Below the pieces are notes generated by a model. It was given only the letters and a program-made list of their open reading frames with translations. It searched no databases and had not been told where the DNA came from. A stretch of 63,911 bases of DNA, the filler included, from Collodictyon triciliatum (taxonomy: Eukaryota): the NCBI GenBank assembly GCA_043381765.1. It is 13 parts of 13 records of this genome, joined end to end, with 100 filler letters (N's around TTAATTAATTAA, not from the genome) between each part and the next. Parts side by side here need not be neighbours in the genome. Positions count along the whole stretch, not along the records: positions 26,026 to 31,126 come from JBHJMP010005485.1; 12 more parts are not named here. One strand, written 5' to 3'. A program made the position numbers and the translations under genes. This document shows positions 25,762 through 62,213 of this stretch, piece by piece (the stretch's first letter is position 1; the number at the start of each line of letters is the position of its first letter).

Positions 25762-26025
25762 TCTGGGGTAGTTGATATGAGGTTTTTTGTTTGTTTGTTT
25801 TGGTTTTTTTGTTTTTTGTTTTTTGTTTTTTGTTTTTTGTTTTTTGTTTTTTGTTTTTTGTTTTTTGTTTTTTGTTTTTTGTTTTTTGTTTTTATTTGTT
25901 TTTATTTGTTTTTATTTGTTTTTATNNNNNNNNNNNNNNNNNNNNNNNNNNNNNNNNNNNNNNNNNNNNTTAATTAATTAANNNNNNNNNNNNNNNNNNN
26001 NNNNNNNNNNNNNNNNNNNNNNNNN

Positions 26026-26179: not shown

Positions 26180-26849
26180 AATTTATATCAATACATTCAA
26201 GATGAACATAGAGTCAAGTTAAAGAAAGATATGGACGTGTCTTCATGGTAGTTACTTTTTGGGAGTATATCTCTCTTCACAGTTTTATCATAGACCATTA
26301 GTTAATTTTATTTATTTTTTGCACATATGAGGCATATTTTATTATTATTATTATTTTTTTTTTTTGCTTTTGTTTTTTATTTTGTAAAAAGAAAGGAGAT
26401 TAAAACTAACTTGAAGAATCTAGGACTCTAGTTGATATGTCCCCAGATGTACCGCAGCAAGATAATTGTAACGATTGTGGTGTTTTTGCCTGTAAATTTG
26501 CCGAGCGTGTCAGCATGAACGAACCTCTAATTTTTAGTCAGGTAATCATGTCCATCCGCTGAACGACATAACAACTGTATTTTATCAACCCGTGGTTGGG
26601 CTTTGTAGAACGTCACGATGATATCATCCTTTCATGTCATAAAAGAGTCGACAATTCCGTGTCACGCATTTAATGATTTCGTACTCACTCATACTTATTC
26701 CTTTTTGTTTTGCTTTGTTTTGCTTTGTTCTATTTTATTTTATTCTCTGCTGCATAATCCCATACCAGCGAGATATTCAGAATATCCGAAAACTCATGCA
26801 GTTTCAAATCATTACCGGAGTTCTGCTGAACTCCCCGTTGAATGACTAG
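26180..26849 (+). CDS. Ulp1/SENP (peptidase C48) protease, 3' exons only
   Basis: Exons about 26180-26247 (LYQYIQDEHR), 26424-26541 (VPQQDNCNDCGVFACKFAE..FSQ) and 26769-26849 (RDIQNIRKLM...*). Confidence 0.88.
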
Positions 26850-26885
26850 TGAATAAAAGTATATTCTGCTCTACACACTGATGCA

Positions 26886-27020
26886 CGTTTATTTTCAGTA
26901 CTAGAAAGGGTATACCAATCGAAAATTTTGGTAAACCTGGTGCGCTAGTATCCAAGGTCTCATCACTTTTTTCACAAAGATAGTCCAGTGGTGAAGGCTG
27001 TCAGGAAAGACCCAACAGCC
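26886..27020 (-). ncRNA. Putative Fanzor omegaRNA, copy A (scaffold ending at CTAG 26901, guide from the flank)
   Basis: Overlaps and follows the Fanzor stop codon. The 29-nt block 26933-26961 is identical to 52647-52675. Several hairpins are conserved between copies. Boundaries are inferred. Confidence 0.7.
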
Positions 27021-28906
27021 TGTTTTTTAGATGAAAATGTATGCATATTTTGAAGGATAAAAAGAACTTTGTTGAGTATATTTTTAGCGCTGTTAAAGTC
27101 CCTTGTCAAGAATACACTTTGTTTGCTTTCTGAGCGATTCCATTCTTTACATATGAGACATCTATACAACACTTTTTTTGAATTTCCTTTCGGTCTCATA
27201 TATCCCAGTTTCTTTTCGCAGTTGCGGCACATCTTGGAGGTTCTAAATTCATTTACACTAACTGTTTCAAAGCGATAGGATTATATTTTTTTGTAATCCT
27301 CTTCCGATTGTTGGCATAAAATGTTTCATCTGACATTTTCTGCTACAGTTTTCATACGCCAGTACAACATCCTTGCCAAATGTCTTTTCGATTCGGTCCA
27401 TAAACAATTGTTCACTTCTTTTTGTATTAACATACTGTCTCCATCTCATCTTTCGAAAAGTTATCATGTTCATAAAATCTGGATAATTCTATCTGGAATC
27501 TTGATTTCATATACATGTTTTCGAAATTTTTCATAATCGACGGTACATGAATTATGTTTACTCAGTTCTGTCTCTAAATCGATTAAAGATACTCTTGACG
27601 TCTCAAACTGCTAATTCTCTTCGAAAGTTATGACACCAAAAAAAAACAGCACTTTGTAAACCTGTTGCTATGCATATCCCTAAAGCATTGCACTTTTTTT
27701 TCTTGCGCAAGAGTATTTTGTGATTTTTTCGAGATTTGCTATCGTGTCTTCTTTGGTGAGCCGTGTAACGTAATTTCTTACCTGTCCCATCCACATGTAA
27801 ACCAAATTAAACTTGCCTGCGTCCACTCCAACTATTTTTTTTTTTTTTACGCTAATAAAGATAACTGCTCTTCGGAAAGTTCATCTATATAAACATATTT
27901 TTGGGTCTTTTGATTATATTTGGATTTTGGATTTGAAATACCTTTCTTTTTAAACAATAATGACACCGCCAAGCTGTCTGTTTGTATCATATGTTTAAAA
28001 ATGTAGTCTGTTTGATGAAAGACCCTCTTCTTCATTTCAAATAAGTCATCCCATAGTGTCTCTTTGCATCCTGATACATTCTTCAGTAGTGATGCTTTTT
28101 CAGTTGATACTAATATATCTATCAAACATGCGATATCTAGAGTAATATGACATGGAAAATTGTTAGTTCTTTTAGGGATTGGTTGATACTTTTTGATTCC
28201 AATGTCCTCAAAAATGTGATTCATGTAAATCAGACATGGAATGTACTTATTTGGATTGACTTTGACGTCATATTCGATACCATTTACAATATCGCTGGGA
28301 ATGATATGATGCAAATGCGTTATAGCCCATTCTTTGTATTGTTCCGATATTTCGAGATTCTTGAAGATGGCTTTTTTTTAACTTTCGTAACTCTGCCTTT
28401 TTAATAGCTTCTGTAACATTCTCATCTTTAGGAACTGTTTGATTTATAAAGCGCAGTAACCTCTTTACAAAATGTTCCTTAATGTTATTATGATAAGCTG
28501 TTAACATTTGCTTCGCCAAGTACGGTAATAGTGAGACAGTCTAACCAACGGAAAACGTTCTTCTCGGGACAAAATATATCGAAAATCATTGAGATAAAAA
28601 GTTATAAAGTCTTTACTCAAACCTGGATGGTTTAAAATTGTGGATATCTTGTGAAACAAGTCCGAGTGTCTTTAAAGCTTCAAAAAAAAACATTTCATCG
28701 ATTGTTGGGACTTGTGATTTCAATATGTAACATCTTGCAAACAGATAAGTGTCGGTAACCAAATTATGACACAATAAAACCGTATAATTGATTTTGTCAT
28801 AGTCATCCGTATTCTTTACAATCAACTTTAGAGATATTTTCACATTTGGATAGTCTGGTTTTACAGACTTTGGATTCTCAGACTCAAGACGGTTTCTTTT
28901 CTTTAT
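26972..28906 (-). pseudogene. Fanzor1 (TnpB-like RuvC nuclease), frameshifted, copy A
   Basis: Joined frames give VKISLKLIVKN, MLTAYHNNIKEHFVKRLLRFIN, YQPIPKRTN, HMIQTDSLAVSLLF, RuvC-I IVGVDAGK, RuvC-II VNEFRTSKMC, zinc finger CRNC/CLIC and RuvC-III TRDFNSAKNI. Confidence 0.92.
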
Positions 28907-28986
28907 CTGAAAGTCTTTGTTTTACTTTTTCCTTTAGAAAACTACCGAGTTTTCAATTGTAATAAGACTTTAGTCATTCCAAGTCA

Positions 28987-29830
28987 TTTTTTTCCCCCTT
29001 TGTTCGATTCAAAGGACGAGGTTATGCCTACAAAGGGCAAGATAGGTCGTACGATAGAGCAAACGCGAGTAGGAGAAGACACTACCGTGGAGAGGGTAGC
29101 ACTGGAAAGAAGTCAGTGATAGCGAGCTGGTCAGGTGGGCATCCCAACTGGTTGATTGGCTGCGTGGGTAGCAGGGGTTGGATATGCTGTGAGATATCTT
29201 TCGACATATTCCCACATCTCTCTTCGCTTGCGGTCACAGTAGCGAAGAATGCGAGCGTGTTTCAGCAGGCTGTTCAGGAAACTGTATTGCACGAGGCTTT
29301 CCAGCCTGGATATATTGATTTCTCGTTCGGGTCGAATCATTAGAGCGATAAAATGCACGCACACTCCATAAGGACTACAGCATATGTCCCCTTGTGACTG
29401 TCCAGAGTATTCTAGAGTCATAGGCCATTTGGTATTGTGCACCAAACAGGATGTCAGACGCGCTGAGTCGATTGGGAGCATAATCAAGCTCAGAGAGTAT
29501 CTTGTGGGTAGATTCTGACACTTTTGGAGCCAGAGCACTTCACAAATGTGTGTTCGATAGAGGTCGTCTCCACTATGGCACATGGTGCATTCTGGAGAGG
29601 TCGTTGCTGCCTGGACTACGCGCGCACCTATCCACGGCTCTCTGTTGGAGATATTGAGAAGTAGGGCGCGGTGTTTCGGGAGTAACTGAGATATGCGGGC
29701 TTGCTTCCAGTTTTTGACTATCGGCGGGTCTATAATGCCTATAGTTTCGGCCCAACAACTCATCTTCTCCGGTTTGTAGGGATTCAGGCTGATGATTTTA
29801 TATCGAAATAGCTTGGAATATGAAATGGCA
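28987..29830 (-). mobile_element. 5'-truncated non-LTR retrotransposon (LINE) nested in Fanzor element copy A
   Basis: Absent from copy B. Encodes a zf-RVT-like C-terminus (EPWIG..ECTMCHSGDDLYRTHIC). The 3' UTR matches 62078-62213 and ends in a stem-loop plus A tail. Confidence 0.8.
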
Positions 29831-31030
29831 AGAATCAATTTAGGTGAAATTAAGCATCTACCGAGACTCTCAAATTGTGCGCATTGTGGCAAACTGACAC
29901 ACGAAGTTTTTTTTTTTTTGTATGTGATTTGAGGCGAAACGCTGAGAGTCGATTCGGCGTGTTCGAAAGGACGGTCGCATAGCGATTGTGACTGAAAGTC
30001 AACAAACCGGCCCCAACCAACATGATCACCACCGCAAGTGTGGATAGTATACTTTTTTTGAAATGCATGTTTGGTGGCAGGTTTATAGGGTTGGGTTCTG
30101 TCTGGGCGAGGGAAAGGCTTGTTTGTAATTTTTGAATTTGTGAATTAATATTACAGAATGGAAAATAAAAATAAAATCTAAATTAATTACAGGAATATAA
30201 TGAGATTATTAATTATTTTGTAACTTCATTACATACTAATCATATTTTTATACTATTCAGGTTGTTTCTTGGATTCATCAAAGCTCCTGCTTTTCTCAAT
30301 CCAGATTTAATTCGATGATTGTCTGTGTAATAAATTCTTATATATATATATATATGGGTACACTTTCGTTGTATAAAAAGTGTTGTGCTTGAAAGGGATA
30401 AAAACAAGTTCGTCACAACCTTTGTAATGAAGTTTATCCATTTACAGGCTGAATGAGACCGAAGAAGAGAAGAAAAATAGAAAAGAAAAATAGAAAAGAA
30501 AAATAGAAAAGAAAAATAGAAAAGAAAAAAGAAAAAAGAAAAAAGAAAAAAGAAAAAAGAAAAAGAAAAAGAAAAAATTAAAAAGAAAAATAAATGAATC
30601 AGAGTAACTGATATTGAGCACTATATTCATACTTATCTTGCTCCCTGTGGGTTGATGGCTACAGCATGAATCCTACTAACCCTTTCTCCAGTAGCCTCTT
30701 TTTCTCTCGCTACCCGTGGGACGACGGCTTCAGCTCGCTCCGTCTTTTTTTCCCATTATTATATGTTTCAATTTCCTCGATGCGTCTTATTCATATGTTG
30801 TTGCACTCACAGGTCGGTGGCAGCTGGCGTCTGGATCGTCGGTGTGTCTCGGTGCATAACTTGTGTTGCAAAGGATGTGGTAAAGTGACCTTTTTGCTCC
30901 TTGGGTCGGCTGCGTCGGCTTTCTCGGTTTGCGAACGGTCAGTAGGCATTCCATGGAGCAGGGCTGTGTTGCTGGTCTCCTGGAAGGCGGTCTCGTACTT
31001 CTCAGGATCGCTCATTTCGATCGCTTGCGT

Positions 31031-31126
<96 letters not shown>

Positions 31127-31389
31127 NNNNNNNNNNNNNNNNNNNNNNNNNNNNNNNNNNNNNNNNNNNNTTAATTAATTAANNNNNNNNNNNNNNNNNN
31201 NNNNNNNNNNNNNNNNNNNNNNNNNNTTTCTTCTTTTCTTCTTTTCTTCTTTTCTTCTTTTCTTCTTTTCTTCTTTTCTTCTTTTCTTCTTTTCTTCTTT
31301 TCTTCTTTTCTTCTTTTCTTCTTTTTACTAACAAAAATGATATACAGCCGGACGTTAAAACCAGCCCTGAATTTTCGGAGGATAATTTT

Positions 31390-41756: not shown

Positions 41757-44700
41757 GATAATCCTGATGCATGGGATACCCAAGTTACCAACGTCGTTGG
41801 AGCAGATTACCCTTACTTTGGTATATTTGATGGTTCATTATGTTAAAATCAAGCTATTTTGAAAATCGCCACTAGCATATATAAATTCCAATCACTGACG
41901 ACACATCCTAATAATGCATTGTTTCTCATTTCCTCATTCCATCCGATAATGCATGTAGCGATCATCGGAAACCACGACTTGCGCGCCTGGCCCCGCTACA
42001 GCGAGAAGCTCGCCGCTCGTCTCTCTCTCATCCGAGACCTGTCATGTGAAGGAGATGTCGGTGTGAAAATGGTCTGCTCCTACAAGGTATTCGTCTAAGT
42101 CTTTATCAGTGTCTGCTTTTTTTTTAATCCTTTGATTGTACAATCATTAATACGGATGATCACATAACAAATTCTCCATAATACTCACATTCGGATGGGG
42201 GTTATACAGGGACTTCTCTTCATCCAATCTGGCATTGGAACCCTCTCCACTGGCCACCCTGAGTTCATTCGCCAAACATTCACTGATTACCAAGCTACGT
42301 GGAAGGTCTGCGGATGGCACAAGAACCAGCGCCTTTATCAGACCGGTACGGAAGAGCGATACACTCCGTCCTCTCTTTTAATCCTAATTCACTCATCGAC
42401 AGCCGCACAGTTGCCCCTTTTTTGATTCGCTCTAATGCTATCTCTTTTACTCATGTTTAACTGCATGTACTAGGTGGAAAAATCGACGAGACAGGATATG
42501 CCGTGTATGATACTTGCCGCGAATTCGGAGCCATTGTTGCAACTGGTAGAGTAAGACGGATATCATGATGCTATCACTTTGAACGTACGATTAAATGTTA
42601 TACTTTAACACACTCACTTGGTCATGCAGGACATGAGCACAGTTATGCCCGTACTCACTTGATGTCCAACTTCGAGAGACAAGAGGTTGATACTACGATC
42701 TTCCCTTTATTTTTAATCCTTGATACGGGCTATGTCTTTGAACTCCAAAATGCGCCATGATTAATCATATGACGTACCCATAATGGCATATTTATCCTGT
42801 TTTCTTTATTTTTTTATTTTATTTAATTATTCACCAGTGCAAGACTCTCAAAATATTAGAGATTTCGCGAAATGCGATAATTGAGCAACAACATAATTCA
42901 TATTAATCAAAGGAACAAAATTTCACTTAAGATTGCGAGCACTTCCAATGTCCTTGAAATCAAGCCCCATAATTCATTCTGCTTTTGCTCTGGACTTGGA
43001 GGTTTTCTCTCTCTTTTTTATCCCCGATTAACTGATCAGAATCAATGAGACTATTTTATCAAATCATTATTTTATCACAAATCATCGTGAAGTTAACGTG
43101 TGTTGCACCTTCCATGGGTGCATACTTATAGGAAAATGAAACATTATATGATAAAAACTCAACCAATTATATTTGGGACACACTTTTTTTCAGGCTATTC
43201 TATTCGCCCATGGAGATTTGGACTCGAGCAGAACCCGTGGTGGGCCGCTACAGCCTCAGAATCGGTATTTTGAACCCATCGCTTCCCCTCTGTATTTCAT
43301 TCAAGGATTTTGAAATAAGCTAATAACCTAACAAAAAGAGCAAACAAATAAGCAAACAAATAAGCAAACTCTTTAGGAATCATCCATGATGAGACCCTTT
43401 TTTTTTTTAATTTTTTAATTTTTTTTAATTTTTATAATTTTTAAATATAAAGCATTGGACCTCTAACGTGTCTTCCTTTTTCTCAGAATGGGGTTTCCGA
43501 TGGCGCTCTTCTCTGCACCTTCAATGTCAACGGGCGTCGCGAGCATGGCCAATGCTTCTTCCAGGACACGTATGTTTATTTCCCCCTTTAGAATATATGT
43601 CCATCAATCGTGTGAAGTCAGGGCTTATCCTGTCAACTAGAAGTAATGATTCCTATTCTTGTATGCGCCATACTGAAATACTCAATTAACCAGAACCGGA
43701 CGCATTTGGGACAGATTTGATATTATGTCATACAACAATGCCACGGGTACTTGGTTAAATACGAGCCACAAGGATTTTCTTTCGCTTCAAGCATAGTTTT
43801 CTTTCTTTCTTTATTCCTCTCTCATCTTTCCCGTCCTATCATCCACTTTTATTTTTATTTTTATTTTTCGCACTGATGAAGCACCAAGCACGCCGTATGT
43901 GAGCACAAAATCCTCCCGGAGCGAGTTCTTTGAAGTCACCACAAAGACATCAACCAACGACGTTGTTGAGCTGTCATCTGGAGAAATCAGCTGCAAANNN
44001 NNNNNNNNNNNNNNNNNNNNNNNNNNNNNNNNNNNNNNNNNNNNNNNNNNNNNNNNNNNNNNNNNNNNNNNNNNNNNNNNNNNNNNNNNNNNNNNNNNNN
44101 NNNNNNNNNNNNNNNNNNNNNNNNNNNNNNNNNNNNNNNNNNNNNNNNNNNNNNNNNNNNNNNNNNNNNNNNNNNNNNNNNNNNNNNNNNNNNNNNNNNN
44201 NNNNNNNNNNNNNNNNNNNNNNNNNNNNNNNNNNNNNNNNNNNNNNNNNNNNNNNNNNNNNNNNNNNNNNNNNNNNNNNNNNNNNNNNNNNNNNNNNNNN
44301 NNNNNNNNNNNNNNNNNNNNNNNNNNNNNNNNNNNNNNNNNNNNNNNNNNNNNNNNNNNNNNNNNNNNNNNNNNNNNNNNNNNNNNNNNNNNNNNNNNNN
44401 NNNNNNNNNNNNNNNNNNNNNNNNNNNNNNNNNNNNNNNNNNNNNNNNNNNNNNNNNNNNNNNNNNNNNNNNNNNNNNNNNNNNNNNNNNNNNNNNNNNN
44501 NNNNNNNNNNNNNNNNNNNNNNNNNNNNNNNNNNNNNNNNNNNNNNNNNNNNNNNNNNNNNNNNNNNNNNNNNNNNNNNNNNNNNNNNNNNNNNNNNNNN
44601 NNNNNNNNNNNNNNNNNNNNNNNNNNNNNNNNNNNNNNNNNNNNNNNNNNNNNNNNNNNNNNNNNNNNNNNNNNNNNNNNNNNNNNNNNNNNNNNNNNNN

Positions 44701-45375
44701 NNNNNNNNNNNNNNNNNNNNNNNNNNNNNNNNNNNNNNNNNNNNNNNNNNNNNNNAAAGAGCGACGAGGCCACGCGCATCACCATCCGTGCGGAACTTAT
44801 CGCGGATTCTCAGCCATTCGCCTGCGGAAACTCAGTCGCAGAGCAGATCAGTGAGCGCAAAGTCACGCGCGCATTTGCCGTGTGGGACAATGTCGAGGCC
44901 GGCGATGACTGGGAAACCGGAGAAGTGTGGGTCTCTGCAGACATTTCGTCCGTCATTCGCGAGGTTTGGACATGCCAGGATTCTTTGAATCCAGCCCACT
45001 CTATCGACCCCCTCTGCAATGGCCTCTCCATTCCTTTGTTTGGGCGGCCGAAGAGACTCCTACAGCTACCATTACCAAACCGGGCCAAATCGTTTCCTTT
45101 ACTCCCTTACACACTCTCTATACTTTCCTTTTGTTTCTTTTTGACAGCCAAATCATCTCGCTGTCGATATACTCACGCCTCTTTTCTGTGCCCATCCGCA
45201 GGTCATCGCACAGCCTGGATGGAAGTCCGGAAACGCCATCACGCTCATTATCGAATCGGAAGGTTCGCACCGCTCCTTCTTTACCACAGACGAGTCCGCC
45301 TGCTTTGCCCCGACACTCTCTGTGGCCCTGAACGGCCTCTCTGCTGTCAACATGGGCAGTCTGAAGCGCATGTAA
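41757..45375 (+). CDS. Calcineurin-like metallophosphoesterase with C-terminal bacterial-type beta domain, 5' truncated, internal N gap
   Basis: GNHD, WKVCGWH, GHEHSYARTH and SGLGG motifs. C-terminus SADISSVIREVIAQPGWKSGNAITLII...APTLSV. Confidence 0.82.
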
Positions 45376-52596: not shown

Positions 52597-52735
52597 GTTT
52601 ATTTATTATAACTAGCAAGAAGGGGTTGCCAATCTTTTCGATTGAGAAACCTGGTGCGCTAGTATCCAAGGTCTCTCCACTTTTTTAAACAAAGATTGTG
52701 AAGCGGTGAAGGCTGCCTGGAAAGACCCAAAAGCC
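52597..52735 (-). ncRNA. Putative Fanzor omegaRNA, copy B
   Basis: Same invariant 29-nt hairpin and covarying subterminal hairpin as copy A. Scaffold end inferred at CTAG 52612-52615. Confidence 0.7.
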
Positions 52736-54618
52736 TATTTTTTTAGAGGAAGATGTATGCATTTTTTGAAGGGTTAAATGAACTTTCTTGAGTATATTGT
52801 TAGCCCTGTTAAAGTCCCTTGTCAAGAATATACTTTGTTTGCTTTCTGGGCGATGGCATTCTTTACATATGACACATCTATACACCTTTTTTTGAATTTC
52901 CTTTCAGTCATATATTCCAGTTCTTTTTCGCAGTTACAACACATCTTGGAGGTTCTAAATTCATTTACACTTACTGTTTCAAACCGTTTGGATAGTATTT
53001 TTCGTAATCCTCTTCCGTTTATTGCCATAAAATGGTTTCGTCGGGGATTTTCTGCTCCAGTCTCCTTACGCCAGTACAACATCCTTGCCAAATGCCTTTT
53101 CGATTCGGTCCATAAACAATTTTCACTTCTTTTTGTATTAACATACCATCTCCGTCTCATCTTTCGAAAAGTTACTTGTTTATAAAATCTGGATAATTCT
53201 ACCTGGAATCTTGATTTCATTGATACATATTCTCGAAATTTTTCATAATCGACCGCGCATGAATTATGTTTACTCAGTTTTGTCTCCAAATCGATTAAAG
53301 ATACTCTTGATGTCTCAAACTGCTGATTCTCTTCAAAAGTCAGGGATAAAAGAAACGGCGCTTTGTAATCTGTTGCCATGCATATCCCTAAAGCATTGCA
53401 CTTTTTTTTCTTGCGCAAGAGTATTTTGTGACTTTAAAGAGATTTGCTATCATGTCTTCTTTGGTGTGCCATGTAACGTAATTTCTTACCTGTCTCATAC
53501 ACCATGTAAACCAAATGAAACTTGCCTGCGTCCACTCAAACTATTATTTTTTTTCGCTGATAAAGATAACTGCTCTTCGGAAAGTACATCTATATAAACA
53601 TATTCTTTGGGTTTTATTATTATTATTGATTTTTGAATTTGAGATACCTTTCTTTTCATATAATAATGACACCGCTAAGGCGTTTGATTGTATCATGTAT
53701 TTGAAATTGTAGTCTGTTTGATGAAAGACCCTCTTCTTCATTTCAAAGAACTCATCTCATAGGGTCTCTTTGCGTCTTTATATATTCTTCAATAATAATG
53801 TTTTTCCAGATAATAATAATATATATCAAACATGCAGTATCTGGAGTAATATGACATGGTATATTATTAGTTCTTTAGATATTGGTTGAAACTGTTTGGT
53901 TCCAATGTCCTCAAAAAATGCGATTCATGTAAATCGCACATGGAATGTACATGTTTGGATTGACTTTGACGTCATATTCGATACCTTTTACAATATCGCT
54001 GGGAATGATATGATGCAAATGCATTATAACCCATTCTTTGTATTGTTCCGGTATTTCGAGTTTCTTGAAGATGGCTCTTTTTTTTAACTTTCGTAACCCT
54101 GCCTTTTTAATAGCTTCCGTCATATTCTGATCCTTAGGTACTGTTTTATTTATAAAGCGCAGTAACATCTCTACAAAATGTTCCTTAATGTTAATATGAT
54201 AAACTGTAAGCATTTGCTTTGCCAAGTACAGTAATGAATGAGACAGCCTAACCAACGGAACGCATTCTTCTCGGGACAAAAGGAATCGAAAATCATTGGG
54301 ATAAAAATTCATCATGTCATCTCTCATTTCCGGATGTTTTAATCTTGCGAGTCTATCTTGTGAAACTATTCCAACTTTCTTTAAAGCTTACAAAAAAATC
54401 TTTTCATCGATTGTTGGGAGTTGTTGCGAGTTCAGTATATAACATCTTGCAGACAGATAAGTGTCGGTAACCAAATCATGACATAATAAAACCGTATCGT
54501 TGATTTTGTAATAGTCATCCGGATTCTTTACAATCGACTTTAGAGATGTTTTCACATTTCGATAATGTGGTTTTACAGACTTTAGATTCTCAGACTAAAG
54601 ACGATTTCTTTTCTTTAT
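52685..54618 (-). pseudogene. Fanzor1 (TnpB-like RuvC nuclease), frameshifted with stops, copy B
   Basis: VKTSLKSIVKN, YLAKQMLTVYHINIKEHF, YMIQSNALAVSLL, V*VDAGK, VNEFRTSKMCCNC, RCVICKEC, TRDFNRANNI. Confidence 0.92.
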
Positions 54619-55017
54619 CTGAAAGTCTTTGCTTTACTTTTTCCTTTAGAAAACTGCCGAGTTTTTAATTTTAATAAAACTTTAGTCAATTAGTCAATCT
54701 AATAAAAACACAACTGCACAAAATCAATTATGTAAAATTAAGCATTTACCGAGACTCTCAAAATGTGCGCTTTGTGGCAAACAGACACACAAAGTTTTTT
54801 AAAATAAGTGATTTGAGACAAAACGCTGCGAGCCGATTCGGCGAGTTCGAAAGGACAGCCGTATAGCCATTGCGACTGAAAGTCAACATATCGTCCCCAA
54901 ACAACATGATTACCGCCGCAAGTGTGGATAGTATGCTTTTTCGAAATGCATGTTTAGTGGCAGGTTAAAGGGGGGATTCTGTCTGGGCGAAGGCAAGGGC
55001 TTGTTTATAGTTTTTGA

Positions 55018-55043
55018 TTTTTTTTCCTTTATTCGATTCAAAG
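55018..55043 (-). mobile_element. 26-bp LINE 3' remnant with 11-bp target-site duplication, nested in copy B
   Basis: atagtttttga at 55007-55017 and 55044-55054. The homologous site in copy A (about 30125-30140) is empty. Confidence 0.85.
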
Positions 55044-57494
55044 ATAGTTTTTGAATTTTAATTTTAATATTACATATATGGGAAATAAAATATAAATTAA
55101 TTCAGGAATAGAATGATAGATTAAGTATTTTTTTAACCTTACTATATATACTGATTGTACTATTATATTATTCAGGTTGCTTCTTAGATTCATCAAAGCT
55201 CCTGCTTTTGCCAACCCAGAAATAACTCGATGGTTGTCTGTGCAATAAATCGATGTATATGAGAACACTTTCGTTTTATAAAAAGTGTTTTGCCTTGAAA
55301 TGGATAAAACCAAGTTCGTCACAACCTTTGCAATGAAGTTTATCCATTTACAGGCTGAATGAAACCGAAGAAAATAGAGACCGAAGAAAAAAAAAGGAAA
55401 GACAAATGAACCAAAGCAACTAATACTGAGCGATATAATCATAATTATCTTGCTACCCGTGAGTTGATAGCCTGAGCTTGAGGCTTATCAGCCTTTCTTC
55501 GGGTGCTTCTTGCTCTCTTTGATTCCTTACGCGGATCACTTGGTCATGGAGCCATTCATCTCTTTGCTGGAATATCTCTCTTTGCCGTATTTGTCTATCA
55601 TAAACATTCATCTTTCCTGGTCTGCCTCTTCTTTCTTCAGGCATCTCATTTTGCAGCCGCTTTTCTTATGTTTTATCCAAATATTTGGGCACCTTATCGT
55701 CGCTCACGGTGGCTGGACACGATGAAATGGCCCTTTTGCTTATCTTCTTGCTCCGTCAAATCGAACTAAATATTTTTCTATTTATATTAATATGAAATTC
55801 GATATTCAACCTTCTTAACGCTTCATTTATTATCATAAAAGCCGTCAATAAAATACCTCAACCATTTCAAATGACATAAAATTTATTTACTGTCTTTTAC
55901 GTAATTGTTTTAACGCACTTCATGAGAGGAATATTTGACTTCACTTGATTCATCATCTTACGCATAATCTTAATAACAAAGAATAAATGATATATGCCGT
56001 ATTGTTTCATGGGTTGCAATAGTGTATGTTTTGAGATCTCGCTATGATAGCAGGCTAGGAGCGCTGGAGTCGTCCATGCCACGGAGTTTTCCTCATTGCG
56101 CATTGAACGCTTATGCCCCGAACGCGAATGGCTGTCATACCGCTTCTACCTTGTTCATCAAATAGCTCGCTCCGTCTTAATATCGGTTTGTTATACTCAT
56201 GGGTCGGTGTGTTTCGGTGCGTAACCTGTATTGTAAGGGATCTTGTCAAGTGGCCTTTTCGCTCTCTGGGTTGGCTGTGTCGGCCTTCTCGGTTTGCGTA
56301 CAATCAGTAGGCGTTCATTGGGGCAGGGCTGTGGCGCTGGTCTCGTCCTTCTCAGGATCTCTCTTTTCGATCGCTTCCTTGTTTTTTTCCAGCTTTAGAA
56401 TATGGTGGGTTGTGTGAAGAAGGAAAGAACGCCAGCGTAATAGTATTATTTTCTGGAGAATGTGTCTTTCTTTCTCCCCCAGTGTTTATTATTTCTCAGC
56501 AAAAGGAGACTTTTTTTCTTTTTCATTATGTTTTTTTTTATTGTTTCTTCAACTCTGTATCTCTCTGTCGGGGTGATCACACGTTTATTCGCAGCGCATA
56601 GTAAAATAAAAAATAAAAAAAATAAAAAAATCTGGCCTGGGCTCGAACTTTCTAATATTTCCTACACAGAAACGCACAAACAGTTCAAGTTCTACGAAAT
56701 GATATCAATATATACTTAGTTAATAATTAATTGATGGTAACTAATATTAAGCTGGCCAAAGTTGGAGGCTGAAGAGTTTCTTGTGAGCCCGTGCAAACGC
56801 AGCCAACACGTAACGAAAGTGCTGACGAAGGGACGGTATCCTTGTGGCACTTGGACGTTTGTTAAAAAGCGACATGTGGGAAATGACAATTGCTTTTCAG
56901 GATGCAGAGAGCGTTTCAAGAAAAGACCCGTCGGGTTGTGTTCGTCCTGGGTAAGGTTGTCATTTCGTTTGATTGCGAATAATATTTTTTCCAGGACGAT
57001 TTTCTTGCTTGGCGTTGGGCTGTATTTTTTTTTTTTTTGCTCTATTTCTTTGACATTTTCTTTTCGGTTTTGTTTGTTTGCTTTAGTAAGTTATTGTTAT
57101 TAGTATTATTAGTATTATTATTAGTATTATTATTAGTATTATTATTAGTATTATTATTAGTATTATTATTAGTATTATTATTAGTATTATTATTAGTNNN
57201 NNNNNNNNNNNNNNNNNNNNNNNNNNNNNNNNNNNNNNNNNTTAATTAATTAANNNNNNNNNNNNNNNNNNNNNNNNNNNNNNNNNNNNNNNNNNNNTTT
57301 TGTTTTGTTTTTGCTTTTTGCTTTTTGCTTTTTGCTTTTTGCTTTTTGCTTTTTGCTTTTTGCTTTTTGCTTTTTGCTTTTTGCTTTTTGCTTTTTGCAA
57401 TCGCCTTGTCATTCATATTTTGGTTCCTTTTAGCTCCTTTTCAAAAATATGGACATAGTTGTGTATCTAGATAGGCATTTAGAGACTCTAGTCT

Positions 57495-59571: not shown

Positions 59572-61171
59572 ATTTAAATCAGCAATTCAAAGTATGGAGG
59601 AACGATGAGAGGAGGGAGGGAGAACACGTAAATGGTACCTTACATAAAGGTATCTCATAAAACATACTCCAATAAGGGAATGGAAAAAATAAAAATTAAA
59701 AGATGATATTCCCCTTGAATGAAGAAAAAATCGGTCCATTCCCCTTCCAAGCAAACATAGAGAAAAATATGGGGCAAACTTTGGCATAATGTTTTAAAAN
59801 NNNNNNNNNNNNNNNNNNNNNNNNNNNNNNNNNNNNNNNNNNNNNNNNNNNNNNNNNNNNNNNNNNNNNNNNNNNNNNNNNNNNNNNNNNNNNNNNNNNN
59901 NNNNNNNNNNNNNNNNNNNNNNNNNNNNNNNNNNNNNNNNNNNNNNNNNNNNNNNNNNNNNNNNNNNNNNNNNNNNNNNNNNNNNNNNNNNNNNNNNNNN
60001 NNNNNNNNNNNNNNNNNNNNNNNNNNNNNNNNNNNNNNNNNNNNNNNNNNNNNNNNNNNNNNNNNNNNNNNNNNNNNNNNNNNNNNNNNNNNNNNNNNNN
60101 NNNNNNNNNNNNNNNNNNNNNNNNNNNNNNNNNNNNNNNNNNNNNNNNNNNNNNNNNNNNNNNNNNNNNNNNNNNNNNNNNNNNNNNNNNNNNNNNNNNN
60201 NNNNNNNNNNNNNNNNNNNNNNNNNNNNNNNNNNNNNNNNNNNNNNNNNNNNNNNNNNNNNNNNNNNNNNNNNNNNNNNNNNNNNNNNNNNNNNNNNNNN
60301 NNNNNNNNNNNNNNNNNNNNNNNNNNNNNNNNNNNNNNNNNNTTGATTGTTGAGACGGCCTCAACATCTAAGATTTTCATAATATAAAAAGAGTTACAGA
60401 TGGATTCATCCCGCCCCTGCTACATACTTTCCATGACAGCAAATATGAAAGCCATTCTACCACAACCATAAAATAATAAGGAGATTCGGCTTGGGGTGGC
60501 AGCAGAAAACTCACAGTATCTATTGTAATATTATTATTGCATAATGTAAGACACATAATCTTTCAATGGCGAGTGAAATAACAAAAAATAGTTTTTATCA
60601 TATTTTCCACATTATATAATTCTTGACTTCTTGATACTTAATAAGATTGGATTCAGATTGCAAGCTTCAATCCACGCCAAAAATGGACAACAATATCAAC
60701 GGTGCTATAAAGCGGAGGAAGCAGCTCTCATTTAAACAGCAACAACATGTCCGCTCCATTTCCGTGGTACACCAACCACCAGAATCCCAGGTAGCATAAG
60801 TTTGGAGAAGAATGAAAGGACACGGACGGTTTGAAGTGCTCAGGGTTGGGTAGCATAGACATCCGTCATTATCCTTCATACACGGAAATGATATTATCTG
60901 CGAGTTTAAAGCAAAGACATTATGCTTCGTGAAGGATAGAATATCCACAAAAACTTAACCTTTCAAGCAATACTTCACTCACCTGGGGCTGGTGACTGGA
61001 TCGTAATCACCTAGGGACAAAACCACGGACGCTACAAGCTTTTATTTAAAGCCAAATTCATGTCAAAGTCAGGCGAATTATAGTTGTGGTAGGCGTACAC
61101 AGCTAAAAAAAAAAAAAAAAAAAAAANNNNNNNNNNAAAAAAGAAAAAAAAAATAAGTGTGGGGAGGCGAC

Positions 61172-62077: not shown

Positions 62078-62213
62078 TCACTGATTCTTTTTCCGGTGCT
62101 ACCCTCTCCACGGTAGCCTTCTCCTACTCGCGTTTGCTCTCTCCCGTGTGCTCCCATCCCACCCCTTTGTATGGCATAACCTCGCTACACTTTGAATCGA
62201 ATAAAGGAAAAAA
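62078..62213 (+). mobile_element. About 135-bp 3' fragment of the same LINE family
   Basis: Homologous to the reverse complement of 28987-29120 (gtgctaccctctccacggtag..ttctcctactcgcgtttgctct..ggcataacctcg..tttgaatcgaa). Confidence 0.85.

What the first reader, a model, noticed from the sequence alone, without database searches (positions are those of the whole stretch)
26886..27020. Conserved structured omegaRNA whose predicted pseudoknot uses the terminal CUAG
Seen on the minus strand: a 29-nt block GAGACCTTGGATACTAGCGCACCAGGTTT is identical in both copies (26933-26961; 52647-52675) while its neighbours diverge. It folds as a stem with loop AUACUAGCGCA. A downstream hairpin differs in sequence but keeps pairing (A: TACCAA..TTGGTA; B: CAATC-GAAAA-GATTG), and an upstream GGCT..AGCC hairpin is also kept. 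The loop ACUAG(C) is complementary to the terminal (G)CUAGU (5 bp in A, 6 bp in B). Known: TnpB/Fanzor guide RNAs derive from the element 3' end and have a pseudoknot just before the guide. Inference: the scaffold ends at CUAG, and the guides are about UACUGAAAAUAAACG (A) and UUAUAAUAAAUAAAC (B).
Basis: partly seen in the sequence, partly recalled or inferred. Interest (0 to 1): 0.82.

Follow-up and report, generated by a model that had tools for sequence, protein, structure and literature searches.

The report
Decayed Fanzor guide-RNA end, pseudoknot unproven
The flagged stretch is the tail of two broken copies of a Fanzor1 (RNA-guided nuclease) element and is probably what is left of its guide-RNA scaffold, but the proposed pseudoknot rests on a six-base match that two related copies cannot test.

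Summary
The sequence facts hold. The 29-nt block is identical at 26933-26961 and 52647-52675, three hairpins can be drawn, and the hairpin loop is complementary to the CTAG region (6 bp in each copy, not 5 and 6).

They are not more than shared descent gives. The two copies are 87.4% identical over 2062 columns. Six identical runs of 29 nt or more occur, against 5.2 expected. Folding z-scores are -1.9 and -1.1, and no compensatory change supports any stem. The "sequence-different, pairing-kept" hairpin fits an inversion of its centre.

Both nuclease genes are dead (three reading frames each, all three stop codons). The protein is Fanzor1-type (best solved matches GtFz1, PpFz1, SpuFz1).

Position supports a guide-RNA (omegaRNA) scaffold remnant. 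It overlaps the last 16 codons, and copy similarity ends sharply at CTAGT.

The pseudoknot is sterically possible but unsupported. The match has a chance probability of about 0.04-0.07 per copy. Published Fanzor1 omegaRNAs lack this pseudoknot. About 90 giant-virus relatives show a nested fold with no loop-tail pairing.

Verdict: a new member of a known kind, of modest interest.

The parts
26900..31038 (-). Copy A of the repeated unit. The right end is sharp at CTAGT (26904-26900). The left end is unresolved: similarity to B is still seen at 30838-31038, and an N-mask starts at 31127. It holds about 850 nt (28980-29830) that copy B lacks.
52611..56388 (-). Copy B of the repeated unit. The right end is at GCTAGT (52616-52611). 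The left end is unresolved.
26972..28906 (-). Fanzor1-type pseudogene of copy A. Its matches to the intact relative P0001 are spread over three reading frames with many in-frame stops. The C-terminal piece keeps the zinc-finger cysteines and the RDFNSAKNI motif.
52685..54618 (-). Fanzor1-type pseudogene of copy B. It also spans three frames with in-frame stops, broken at places different from copy A.
26996..27020 (-). Hairpin 1 of copy A (GGCUGUUGGG-UCUUU-CCUGACAGCC), inside the last 16 codons. It is a candidate for the SL1 stem-loop of Fanzor1 omegaRNAs. The copy B counterpart is 52711-52735.
   Evidence: position 27001 reads C (G on the RNA strand, as in B) in nearly all related contigs
26933..26961 (-). 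The 29-nt block identical in both copies (B: 52647-52675). It is a possible hairpin of 8 bp with one bulge and the loop AUACUAGCGCA (26941-26951).
   Evidence: not in the minimum-energy fold of A
26913..26933 (-). Hairpin 3 of copy A (TACCAA-AATTTTCGA-TTGGTA). The copy B counterpart is 52630-52644 (CAATC-GAAAA-GATTG). The two differ mainly by an inverted centre.
52630..52698 (-). Copy B only: a long-range 8-bp stem, CAAUCUUU (52691-52698) with AAAGAUUG (52630-52637), that encloses the block's hairpin. It competes with hairpin 3 and is not formable in copy A.
   Evidence: minimum-energy fold; 6-mer complement list
26899..26904 (-). CUAGUA of copy A, the 3' partner of the proposed pseudoknot and the last letters shared with copy B (B: GCUAGU 52611-52616).
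26886..26900 (-). The two flanks show no significant similarity, as expected of sequence outside the element.

Best explanation
The flagged 135 nt is the right-hand end of copy A of a repeat present twice in the window. Each copy carries a dead Fanzor1-type nuclease gene.

The stretch covers the last 16 codons, the stop, and about 70 nt more, up to the point where the two copies stop resembling each other (CTAGT). It is most likely the decayed remnant of the element's omegaRNA (guide-RNA) scaffold gene.

In a working ancestor, an RNA starting near hairpin 1 would have folded into a few nested stem-loops and bound the nuclease. It would have continued into the flanking DNA as a guide of roughly 15 nt.

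Shown: the position, the gene family, the decay of both genes, the sharp right boundary and the differing flanks.

Inferred: that an RNA is or was made, its fold, and its exact 3' scaffold end (near 26901, give or take 10 nt).

The loop-to-CUAG pseudoknot is a possible but unsupported addition, at roughly 0.15-0.2. What the two copies share is explained by common descent at 87% identity, not by selection on structure.
For: Gene family:
- The C-terminal fragment matches the Cas12f1-like TNB domain (E 2.6e-5).
- The closest intact protein, P0001 (648 aa), is 53% identical to the B fragment (E 3.6e-45).
- P0001's best solved relatives are Guillardia theta Fanzor1 (2.1e-28), Parasitella Fanzor1 (2.7e-24) and Spizellomyces Fanzor1 (3.7e-23).

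Position:
- Hairpin 1 starts 16 codons before the stop.
- The GtFz1 omegaRNA overlaps 17 aa of its gene (passage read in PMC10432273).
- Fanzor1 omegaRNAs are built of a conserved first stem-loop plus one to three variable ones (passages read in PMC11423790).

Boundary:
- A/B similarity is significant through GATTGG..ACCC(C)TTCT (P=0.005).
- It is absent after CTAGT (P=0.18; no blastn match in 2.9 kb downstream).
- Upstream it continues for more than 4 kb.

Relatives:
- In the loci of giant-virus and metagenome relatives (73 and 80 loci), a conserved RNA module directly follows or overlaps the gene's end. It stops abruptly at the transposon end.
- It has nested helices that keep pairing: 82.4% of cells are paired, against 52-56% when the partners are slid by 1-2 columns. 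Four of the 6 pairs of the long-range stem show changes on both sides.

Family is multi-copy elsewhere:
- 319, 358, 89 and 66 contigs of four public runs lie on the gene region at 80-99% likeness.
Against: - No RNA evidence exists: no listed run is on record as RNA.
- Folding energies are ordinary.
- No base pair shows a compensatory change between A and B.
- Of the three differences inside hairpin 1, by my reading, one keeps a pair (U-A to U-G) and two weaken it.
- The covariance model of the relatives' omegaRNA finds nothing at either copy's end. Its 7 matches in the window have E 0.13-6.5 and all lie elsewhere.
- A model built from A and B finds nothing in the 153 relative loci. Homology of this RNA region to any known omegaRNA is therefore not shown.
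- No terminal inverted repeat pairs with this end, unlike the relatives.
- The left end is unresolved, so a plain segmental duplication of one old insertion is not excluded.
Confidence: 0.6

Rival explanations
1. This is a functional, structured omegaRNA whose scaffold is closed by an H-type pseudoknot. The apical loop of the conserved hairpin (UACUAG(C)) pairs with the last scaffold bases ((G)CUAGUA), immediately before the guide, as in TnpB and Fanzor2.
For: - A 6-bp Watson-Crick match exists in both copies.
- It sits exactly where A/B similarity ends.
- Chance probability is 0.038-0.039 within the 37-40 nt up to that end.
- The geometry, with an apical loop paired to the bases flanking the guide, is that described for ISDra2 and IS607 TnpB and Fanzor2 (passages read in PMC10711439; PMC11832414).
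- Copies A and B differ in the bases beside CUAG, yet each still reaches 6 bp.
- By my own reasoning, the loop lengths (1 nt, 4 nt, about 40 nt) are sterically compatible with an H-type knot.
Against: - Both sides of the pairing are identical by descent in two related pseudogenes, so nothing covaries.
- CUAG is its own complement, which inflates such matches.
- The match was found after the fact, among several loops and registers.
- The 126-130-nt regions hold 4 perfect 6-mer complements each, against 1.6-1.7 expected (P about 0.13).
- The pseudoknot is reported absent from SpuFz1 and 'lost in Fanzor1' (PMC10432273, PMC11832414, PMC10711439).
- The word 'pseudoknot' does not occur in the paper on three Fanzor1 structures (0 occurrences in the listing).
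- In 91-94 omegaRNA modules of relatives, the loop of the equivalent hairpin is 3-6 nt long. I saw no complement to the tail when reading the alignment.
Confidence: 0.17
2. A nested fold like that of the giant-virus relatives. A long-range stem (CAAUCUUU at the stop codon with AAAGAUUG) encloses the conserved hairpin, with a short tail before the guide. Copy A then lost this stem through an inversion of the quasi-palindrome. On this reading the scaffold would end soon after GAUUGG, about 10-15 nt before CUAG.
For: - The minimum-energy fold of copy B contains this 8-bp stem around the block's hairpin.
- The relatives have the same order: the 5' strand lies at or after the gene's end, a hairpin is enclosed, and the 3' strand sits 6-7 nt before the end. 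That stem keeps 89% of cells paired, with changes on both sides in 4 of 6 pairs.
- Reverse-complemented A matches B at 17 of 23 positions, against 11 of 23 directly.
Against: - The stem is seen in one copy only.
- Neither covariance model links the window's RNA to the relatives' RNA.
- A/B similarity continues significantly past GAUUGG, which argues against the scaffold ending there.
Confidence: 0.2
3. There is no RNA function at all. The region is just the 3' untranslated tail of a decayed repeat or of a segmental duplication, and all the hairpins are chance features of a 120-nt sequence.
For: - Identity in the tail equals that of the dead gene.
- Folding z-scores are ordinary.
- There is no Rfam match.
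- There is no terminal repeat.
- The left end is unresolved.
Against: - Characterised Fanzor and TnpB loci, in the papers I read in part, encode their guide RNA at this position.
- The relatives of this very protein family do too.
- The right boundary is sharp and lies about 70 nt after the stop, while similarity upstream runs for kilobases.
Confidence: 0.2

Closest known systems
Guillardia theta Fanzor1 (GtFz1) and its omegaRNA (PDB 9cer; PMC10432273, PMC11423790)
   Same: - It is the best solved match of the closest intact protein (E 2.1e-28).
- Its omegaRNA overlaps the last 17 aa of the gene (16 codons here).
- Its scaffold is built of several stem-loops before a 3' guide.
   Different: - Protein identity is low.
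- The RNA sequences could not be compared, because no tool gives the RNA chain.
- The copies here are pseudogenes.
- No RNA expression is shown.
Fanzor1 elements of giant viruses with TA-flanked terminal inverted repeats (the loci). Earlier notes of this scan call them Mariner/IS630-Fanzor elements such as PGv-1 (Bao and Jurka 2013; recalled, paper not read).
   Same: - Same protein family: 41-48% identity among the 30 aligned proteins, and P0001 is 53% identical to the window's B fragment.
- Intron-less genes of about 620-650 aa.
- A guide-RNA module directly after or overlapping the gene's end.
- Similarity among copies stops at that module's end.
   Different: - In the relatives the last 30 nt or so of the module are the right terminal inverted repeat (TACACC...). 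An exact inverted copy lies 2.3-4.8 kb upstream.
- The window's copies have no such repeat.
- They do not match the relatives' RNA model.
- They sit in a eukaryote-like scaffold, and they have a longer hairpin loop and tail.
TnpB / Fanzor2 omegaRNA (reRNA) pseudoknot (ISDra2, ISXfa1, ApmFz2; PMC10711439, PMC11832414)
   Same: The proposed pairing has the same geometry: about five bases next to the guide paired with an apical loop.
   Different: - The protein here is Fanzor1-type, a clade in which this pseudoknot is reported lost.
- Only a 6-bp sequence match supports the pairing here.
Spizellomyces punctatus Spu-1 / SpuFz1 omegaRNA and 'ghost' elements (PMC10432273)
   Same: - The guide RNA is made from the right end of the element.
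- The guide is 14-15 nt of flanking sequence.
- Decayed or gene-less copies keep the RNA end.
   Different: - SpuFz1's RNA lies in a terminal inverted repeat downstream of the stop and lacks a pseudoknot.
- Here there is no inverted repeat, and the region overlaps the gene.

Membership tests
Fanzor1 nuclease gene (here as pseudogene) | TnpB-like RuvC and zinc-finger C-terminal region, with closest solved relatives among Fanzor1 proteins | tested here: met
   The TNB domain hit has E 2.6e-5 but falls below Pfam's cut-off (24.7 against 26.3 bits). P0001 gives E 3.6e-45. Through P0001, the PDB matches are GtFz1, PpFz1 and SpuFz1.
Fanzor1 nuclease gene (here as pseudogene) | Intact open reading frame | tested here: not met
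   Both copies need three reading frames and carry TAA, TAG and TGA inside the matches. The breaks lie at different places in A and B.
Fanzor/TnpB omegaRNA | Encoded at the 3' end of the nuclease gene, overlapping or following it, on the same strand | tested here: met
   Hairpin 1 lies in the last 16 codons, and the region runs about 70 nt past the stop.
Fanzor/TnpB omegaRNA | The scaffold is shared among copies, the similarity ends at the element's right end, and the flank (guide) differs | tested here: met
   This rests on two copies only. Similarity is significant to ...TTCT (P=0.005) and absent after CTAGT.
Fanzor/TnpB omegaRNA | Secondary structure supported by covariation or unusual stability | tested here: not met
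   Folding z-scores are -1.86 and -1.13. Among the stems of interest, no pair has changes on both sides. The difference in hairpin 3 fits one inversion.
Fanzor/TnpB omegaRNA | Expressed as a small RNA and bound by the nuclease | not testable with these tools
   No run on record as RNA holds the stretch.
TnpB/Fanzor2-type guide-adjacent pseudoknot | About 5 nt next to the guide are complementary to an apical loop | tested here: met
   The match is 6 bp in each copy, with chance probability 0.04-0.07.
TnpB/Fanzor2-type guide-adjacent pseudoknot | The pairing is kept through changes on both sides in other copies or relatives | tested here: inconclusive
   The loop is identical in A and B. No further copy could be fetched. 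The relatives' modules show no such pairing.
Giant-virus TA-flanked Fanzor1 transposon with TIRs | The right end of the omegaRNA is a terminal inverted repeat with its inverted copy at the left end | tested here: not met
   The best inverted match is 9 nt, with P 0.66 and 0.69. The relatives have 23-38-nt matches.
Giant-virus TA-flanked Fanzor1 transposon with TIRs | Match to the family's omegaRNA covariance model | tested here: not met
   With filters off, R1 gives 7 matches in the window at E 0.13-6.5, none at 26890-27030 or 52600-52740.

The most novel reading that the evidence does not exclude
A eukaryotic Fanzor1 lineage whose guide RNA keeps, or has re-invented, the TnpB/Fanzor2-style pseudoknot. 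The apical loop UACUAG(C) would pair with the last scaffold bases (G)CUAGUA, right before the guide. This would contradict the current view that Fanzor1 guide RNAs lost this knot.
Probability: 0.15. Interest if true: 0.6.

Novelty: new member of a known kind. Interest (0 to 1): 0.3.

Why it matters
If the region is what it seems, it adds one more decayed Fanzor1 right end to a well-known class. It also shows that a Fanzor1 family related to giant-virus transposons is multi-copy in a eukaryote-like genome.

It would matter more if the loop-tail knot were real. Published work holds that Fanzor1 guide RNAs lost the pseudoknot that TnpB and Fanzor2 need. An exception would bear on how the guide-proximal end of the RNA is anchored, and on how guide scaffolds are minimised for genome editing. 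The present data do not justify that claim.

Tried and rejected
**No further copies or relatives of this RNA**
- No whole genome is held for the window, so the decisive survey of all copies could not be run.
- Rfam gave no match and there are no tRNAs.
- blastn of both tails against the 73 viral loci gave only short chance matches.
- The exact 22-mer of the block has 0 matches in viral contigs and in genome contigs.
- The 15-mer has 19 and 93 matches. All extend to only 18-25 nt, which is chance in collections of this size.
No locus was closer than 47% identity to P0001.
- Earlier notes of this scan, by place and by sequence, gave nothing for this genome.
- Only two copies of the tail are in the window.

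**Covariance models**
- R1 (relatives) found nothing at A or B.
- R2 (A+B) found nothing in the 153 loci. The one match, E 0.87 in L060, lies far from the gene's end.

**Terminal inverted repeats**
- None was found for A or B.

**Similarity past CTAG**
- By eye I first took shared AAATAAAC and AGAATATAC as homology past CTAG. The test rejects this (P=0.18).

**Alternative genetic code**
- Rejected as an explanation for the in-frame stops. All three stop codons occur and the frames also shift.

**Public sequencing runs**
- No RNA holder is listed.
- All shares are small, so no statement on habitat or expression is made.
- In the laid runs the part 26828-26909 has no cover in X2-X4 and almost none in X1. 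This is contig data, so a part without cover proves nothing. I do not use it for the boundary.

**Relatives' structure**
- RNAalifold on the raw MAFFT alignment of relatives gave a meaningless 7-pair structure, so the helices were defined by hand.
- My first register for helix P4 was wrong and was corrected.

- Protein structure prediction, complex prediction and the protein atlas were not used. The protein family was already clear.

Full report
**What is in the sequence**

Read on the minus strand, the window holds two copies of one repeat.
- Copy A runs from at least 31038 down to about 26900.
- Copy B runs from at least 56388 down to about 52611.
- They are 87.4% identical over the 2062 columns that end with the flagged block.
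- Copy A carries about 850 nt (28980-29830) that B lacks.

The surrounding DNA looks eukaryotic. It is about 36% G+C, rich in microsatellites, and has few long open frames.

**The gene**

Each copy carries a TnpB-like gene.
- The C-terminal piece of A (SYRFETVSVNEFRTSKMCRNCEKK...RDFNSAKNI) matches the Cas12f1-like TNB domain, below Pfam's own cut-off (E 2.6e-5).
- The closest intact protein in the large protein collection is P0001 (648 aa). It is 53% identical to a 203-aa fragment of B.
- P0001's best solved relatives are three Fanzor1 proteins: GtFz1 2.1e-28, PpFz1 2.7e-24 and SpuFz1 3.7e-23.
- P0001 has 243 relatives at E<=1e-10, most about 620 aa long.
- Their genes lie in giant-virus contigs and in metagenomes: 73 and 80 loci were fetched.

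Both genes in the window are dead.
- Matches to P0001 are spread over three reading frames in each copy.
- They contain TAA, TAG and TGA at unrelated residues.
- The breaks differ between A and B.
- Neither introns nor another genetic code explains this.

**Checking the observation**

The 29-mer is present exactly twice at the stated coordinates. The three hairpins and the loop-CUAG complement exist as described. The complement is 6 bp in both copies: A UACUAG/CUAGUA and B ACUAGC/GCUAGU.

None of this exceeds what two copies at 87% identity give.
- Six identical runs of 29 nt or more occur in the alignment (longest 54), against 5.2 expected.
- The 97 nt ending with the block are 87.6% identical, like the dead gene.
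- RNAfold energies are ordinary: z -1.86 and -1.13.
- The minimum-energy fold of A does not contain the block's hairpin. Its 3' strand pairs instead into an extended local hairpin.

**The 'compensated' hairpin**

Between GGTTT and GATTGG the copies differ at 9 of 12 positions, far more than elsewhere. If the A hairpin is reverse-complemented it matches B at 17 of 23 positions, against 11 of 23 in the direct alignment. The loop GAAAA of B is TTTTC in A. By inference, a single inversion of the centre of a quasi-palindrome would produce this difference and would keep pairing automatically. It is therefore not evidence of selection on an RNA stem.

In B, the 3' arm of this hairpin can instead pair with CAAUCUUU at the stop codon. 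That gives an 8-bp long-range stem around the block's hairpin, and it is B's minimum-energy fold. Copy A cannot form it.

**Where the element ends**

- A/B similarity is still significant in the 40 nt after the block (GATTGG, ACCC(C)TTCT; P=0.005).
- After CTAGT no similarity is detectable. The best local match is 9 nt (P=0.18), and there is no blastn match in 2.9 kb downstream.
- Upstream, similarity continues for more than 4 kb and its end is not resolved.

So the right boundary is sharp, lies about 70 nt after the stop, and coincides with the CUAG within a few bases.

No terminal inverted repeat matches this end.

**Relatives as a guide to the fold**

In the relatives, the DNA at and after the gene's end is strikingly conserved (...UCGGCGUUUUAAAUGUNCAAAGGUGUA). 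It stops being conserved at one point.
- I found the end motif in 125 of the 141 loci where the gene's stop could be placed. These gave 102 distinct windows.
- I dropped 8 with doubtful anchors: L138, L032, L022, L024, L025, L114, L091 and L101.
- I aligned the 91 distinct trimmed sequences that remained.

On an alignment fitted to a covariance model (94 matches in 99 loci), three nested helices hold.
- An outer helix UUUUAC/GUAAAA has 97.2% of cells paired, with only one-sided changes.
- A long-range stem has 89.0% paired, with changes on both sides in 4 of 6 pairs.
- An enclosed hairpin has 64.5% paired, with changes on both sides in 2 of 7 pairs.
- Overall, 82.4% of cells pair, against 52-56% with partners slid by one or two columns.

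This alignment is fitted to the structure and so leans towards it.

The last 30 nt or so of this module are the right terminal inverted repeat of a TA-flanked element. An inverted copy of 23-38 nt lies 2.1-4.8 kb upstream in each of the 45 best-scoring loci that I printed (the total number scored was not printed).

When I read the alignment, no apical loop in these modules was complementary to the tail.

The window's copies do not match this model. A model built from A and B finds nothing in the 153 loci. So the relatives inform by analogy only.

**Literature**

From the passages I read:
- The pseudoknot of ISDra2 and IS607 TnpB and of Fanzor2 joins about five bases next to the guide to an apical or 5' region. 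[quoted passage not shown]
- The SpuFz1 omegaRNA 'lacks the pseudoknot' (PMC10432273).
- Three Fanzor1 structures share a 7-bp first stem-loop followed by one to three variable stem-loops (PMC11423790).
- The GtFz1 omegaRNA overlaps 17 aa of its gene.

**The pseudoknot**

It is sterically possible by my own reasoning: 1 nt, 4 nt and about 40 nt of connecting loops. It also sits exactly at the boundary.

Its statistical weight is small.
- P(>=6 bp) is 0.074 (A) and 0.052 (B) in 72 nt, and 0.038 and 0.039 in the 37-40 nt up to the boundary.
- The two copies share it by descent.
- CUAG is self-complementary.
- The match was picked after looking.

I put it at about 0.15-0.2.

**Other data**

Four public runs hold many related contigs over the gene. 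319, 358, 89 and 66 contigs were laid at 80-99% likeness, so the family is multi-copy elsewhere and may include intact members. At 27001 nearly all of these contigs read as copy B does. That turns a U-A pair of hairpin 1 into U-G.

**Verdict**

This is a real, correctly described sequence feature. It is best read as the decayed guide-RNA end of a Fanzor1 element. The 'conserved structure' and the pseudoknot are not supported by the data at hand. The scaffold end near CUAG is plausible. It is a new member of a known kind, of modest interest.

Noticed in passing
L001-L153 (e.g. L111:1150-1181 with L111:5118-5149; L001:1139-1168 with L001:4421-4450): In the giant-virus relatives, the last 30 nt or so of the omegaRNA scaffold are the right terminal inverted repeat of a TA-flanked element 2.1-4.8 kb long. 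The extreme conservation of UCGGCGUUUUAAAUGUNCAAAGGUG may therefore serve the transposase as well as the nuclease.
   Followed up: partly
alignment A5 of relatives, columns 5-10 with 171-176: The bases just before the guide, including the TA and the As of the flank (GUAAAA), can pair with a conserved upstream UUUUAC. 97% of cells are paired, with only one-sided changes. This nested outer helix would use target-site bases to close the RNA fold.
   Followed up: partly
L026:5919-5986(-), L054:5506-5575(-), L017:5789-5858(-), L096:1638-1734(-): Four relative loci hold a second match to the omegaRNA model, on the opposite strand (E 2.9e-9 to 1.6e-4). The one in L096 overlaps the left inverted repeat. 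These could be neighbouring elements, gene-less 'ghost' copies, or long inverted repeats.
   Followed up: no
window 28980-29830 (copy A only); window 62078-62213: Copy A holds about 850 nt, with higher G+C, that copy B lacks. Part of it (28988-29119) is 78% identical to 62078-62213. It is probably another repeat nested in copy A, or deleted from B. A 337-codon stop-free frame here has no Pfam match.
   Followed up: no
window 26972-27287: Contigs of runs X1 and X2 join 26976 or 26981 to 27287, and 26972 to 27048. These may be internally deleted family members that keep the 3' tail region.
   Followed up: no
window 26538-26766: One contig of run X1 skips 227 nt with GT..AG ends in the unique flank downstream of copy A. 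This could be an intron of a neighbouring gene, if that run is RNA.
   Followed up: no
window, every ~5.2 kb (e.g. 5108-5207, 10316-10415, 25926-26025, 31127-31226): There are regularly spaced pairs of 44-N runs separated by 12 bases, plus longer N runs at 43998-44755 and 59800-60342. These are masks or scaffolding gaps. One of them hides the possible left end of copy A.
   Followed up: no
P0001: The protein collection lists Pfam PF26935.1 for P0001 and its relatives. The local Pfam-A scan of P0001 returned no family at E<=0.01. The two Pfam copies probably differ.
   Followed up: no
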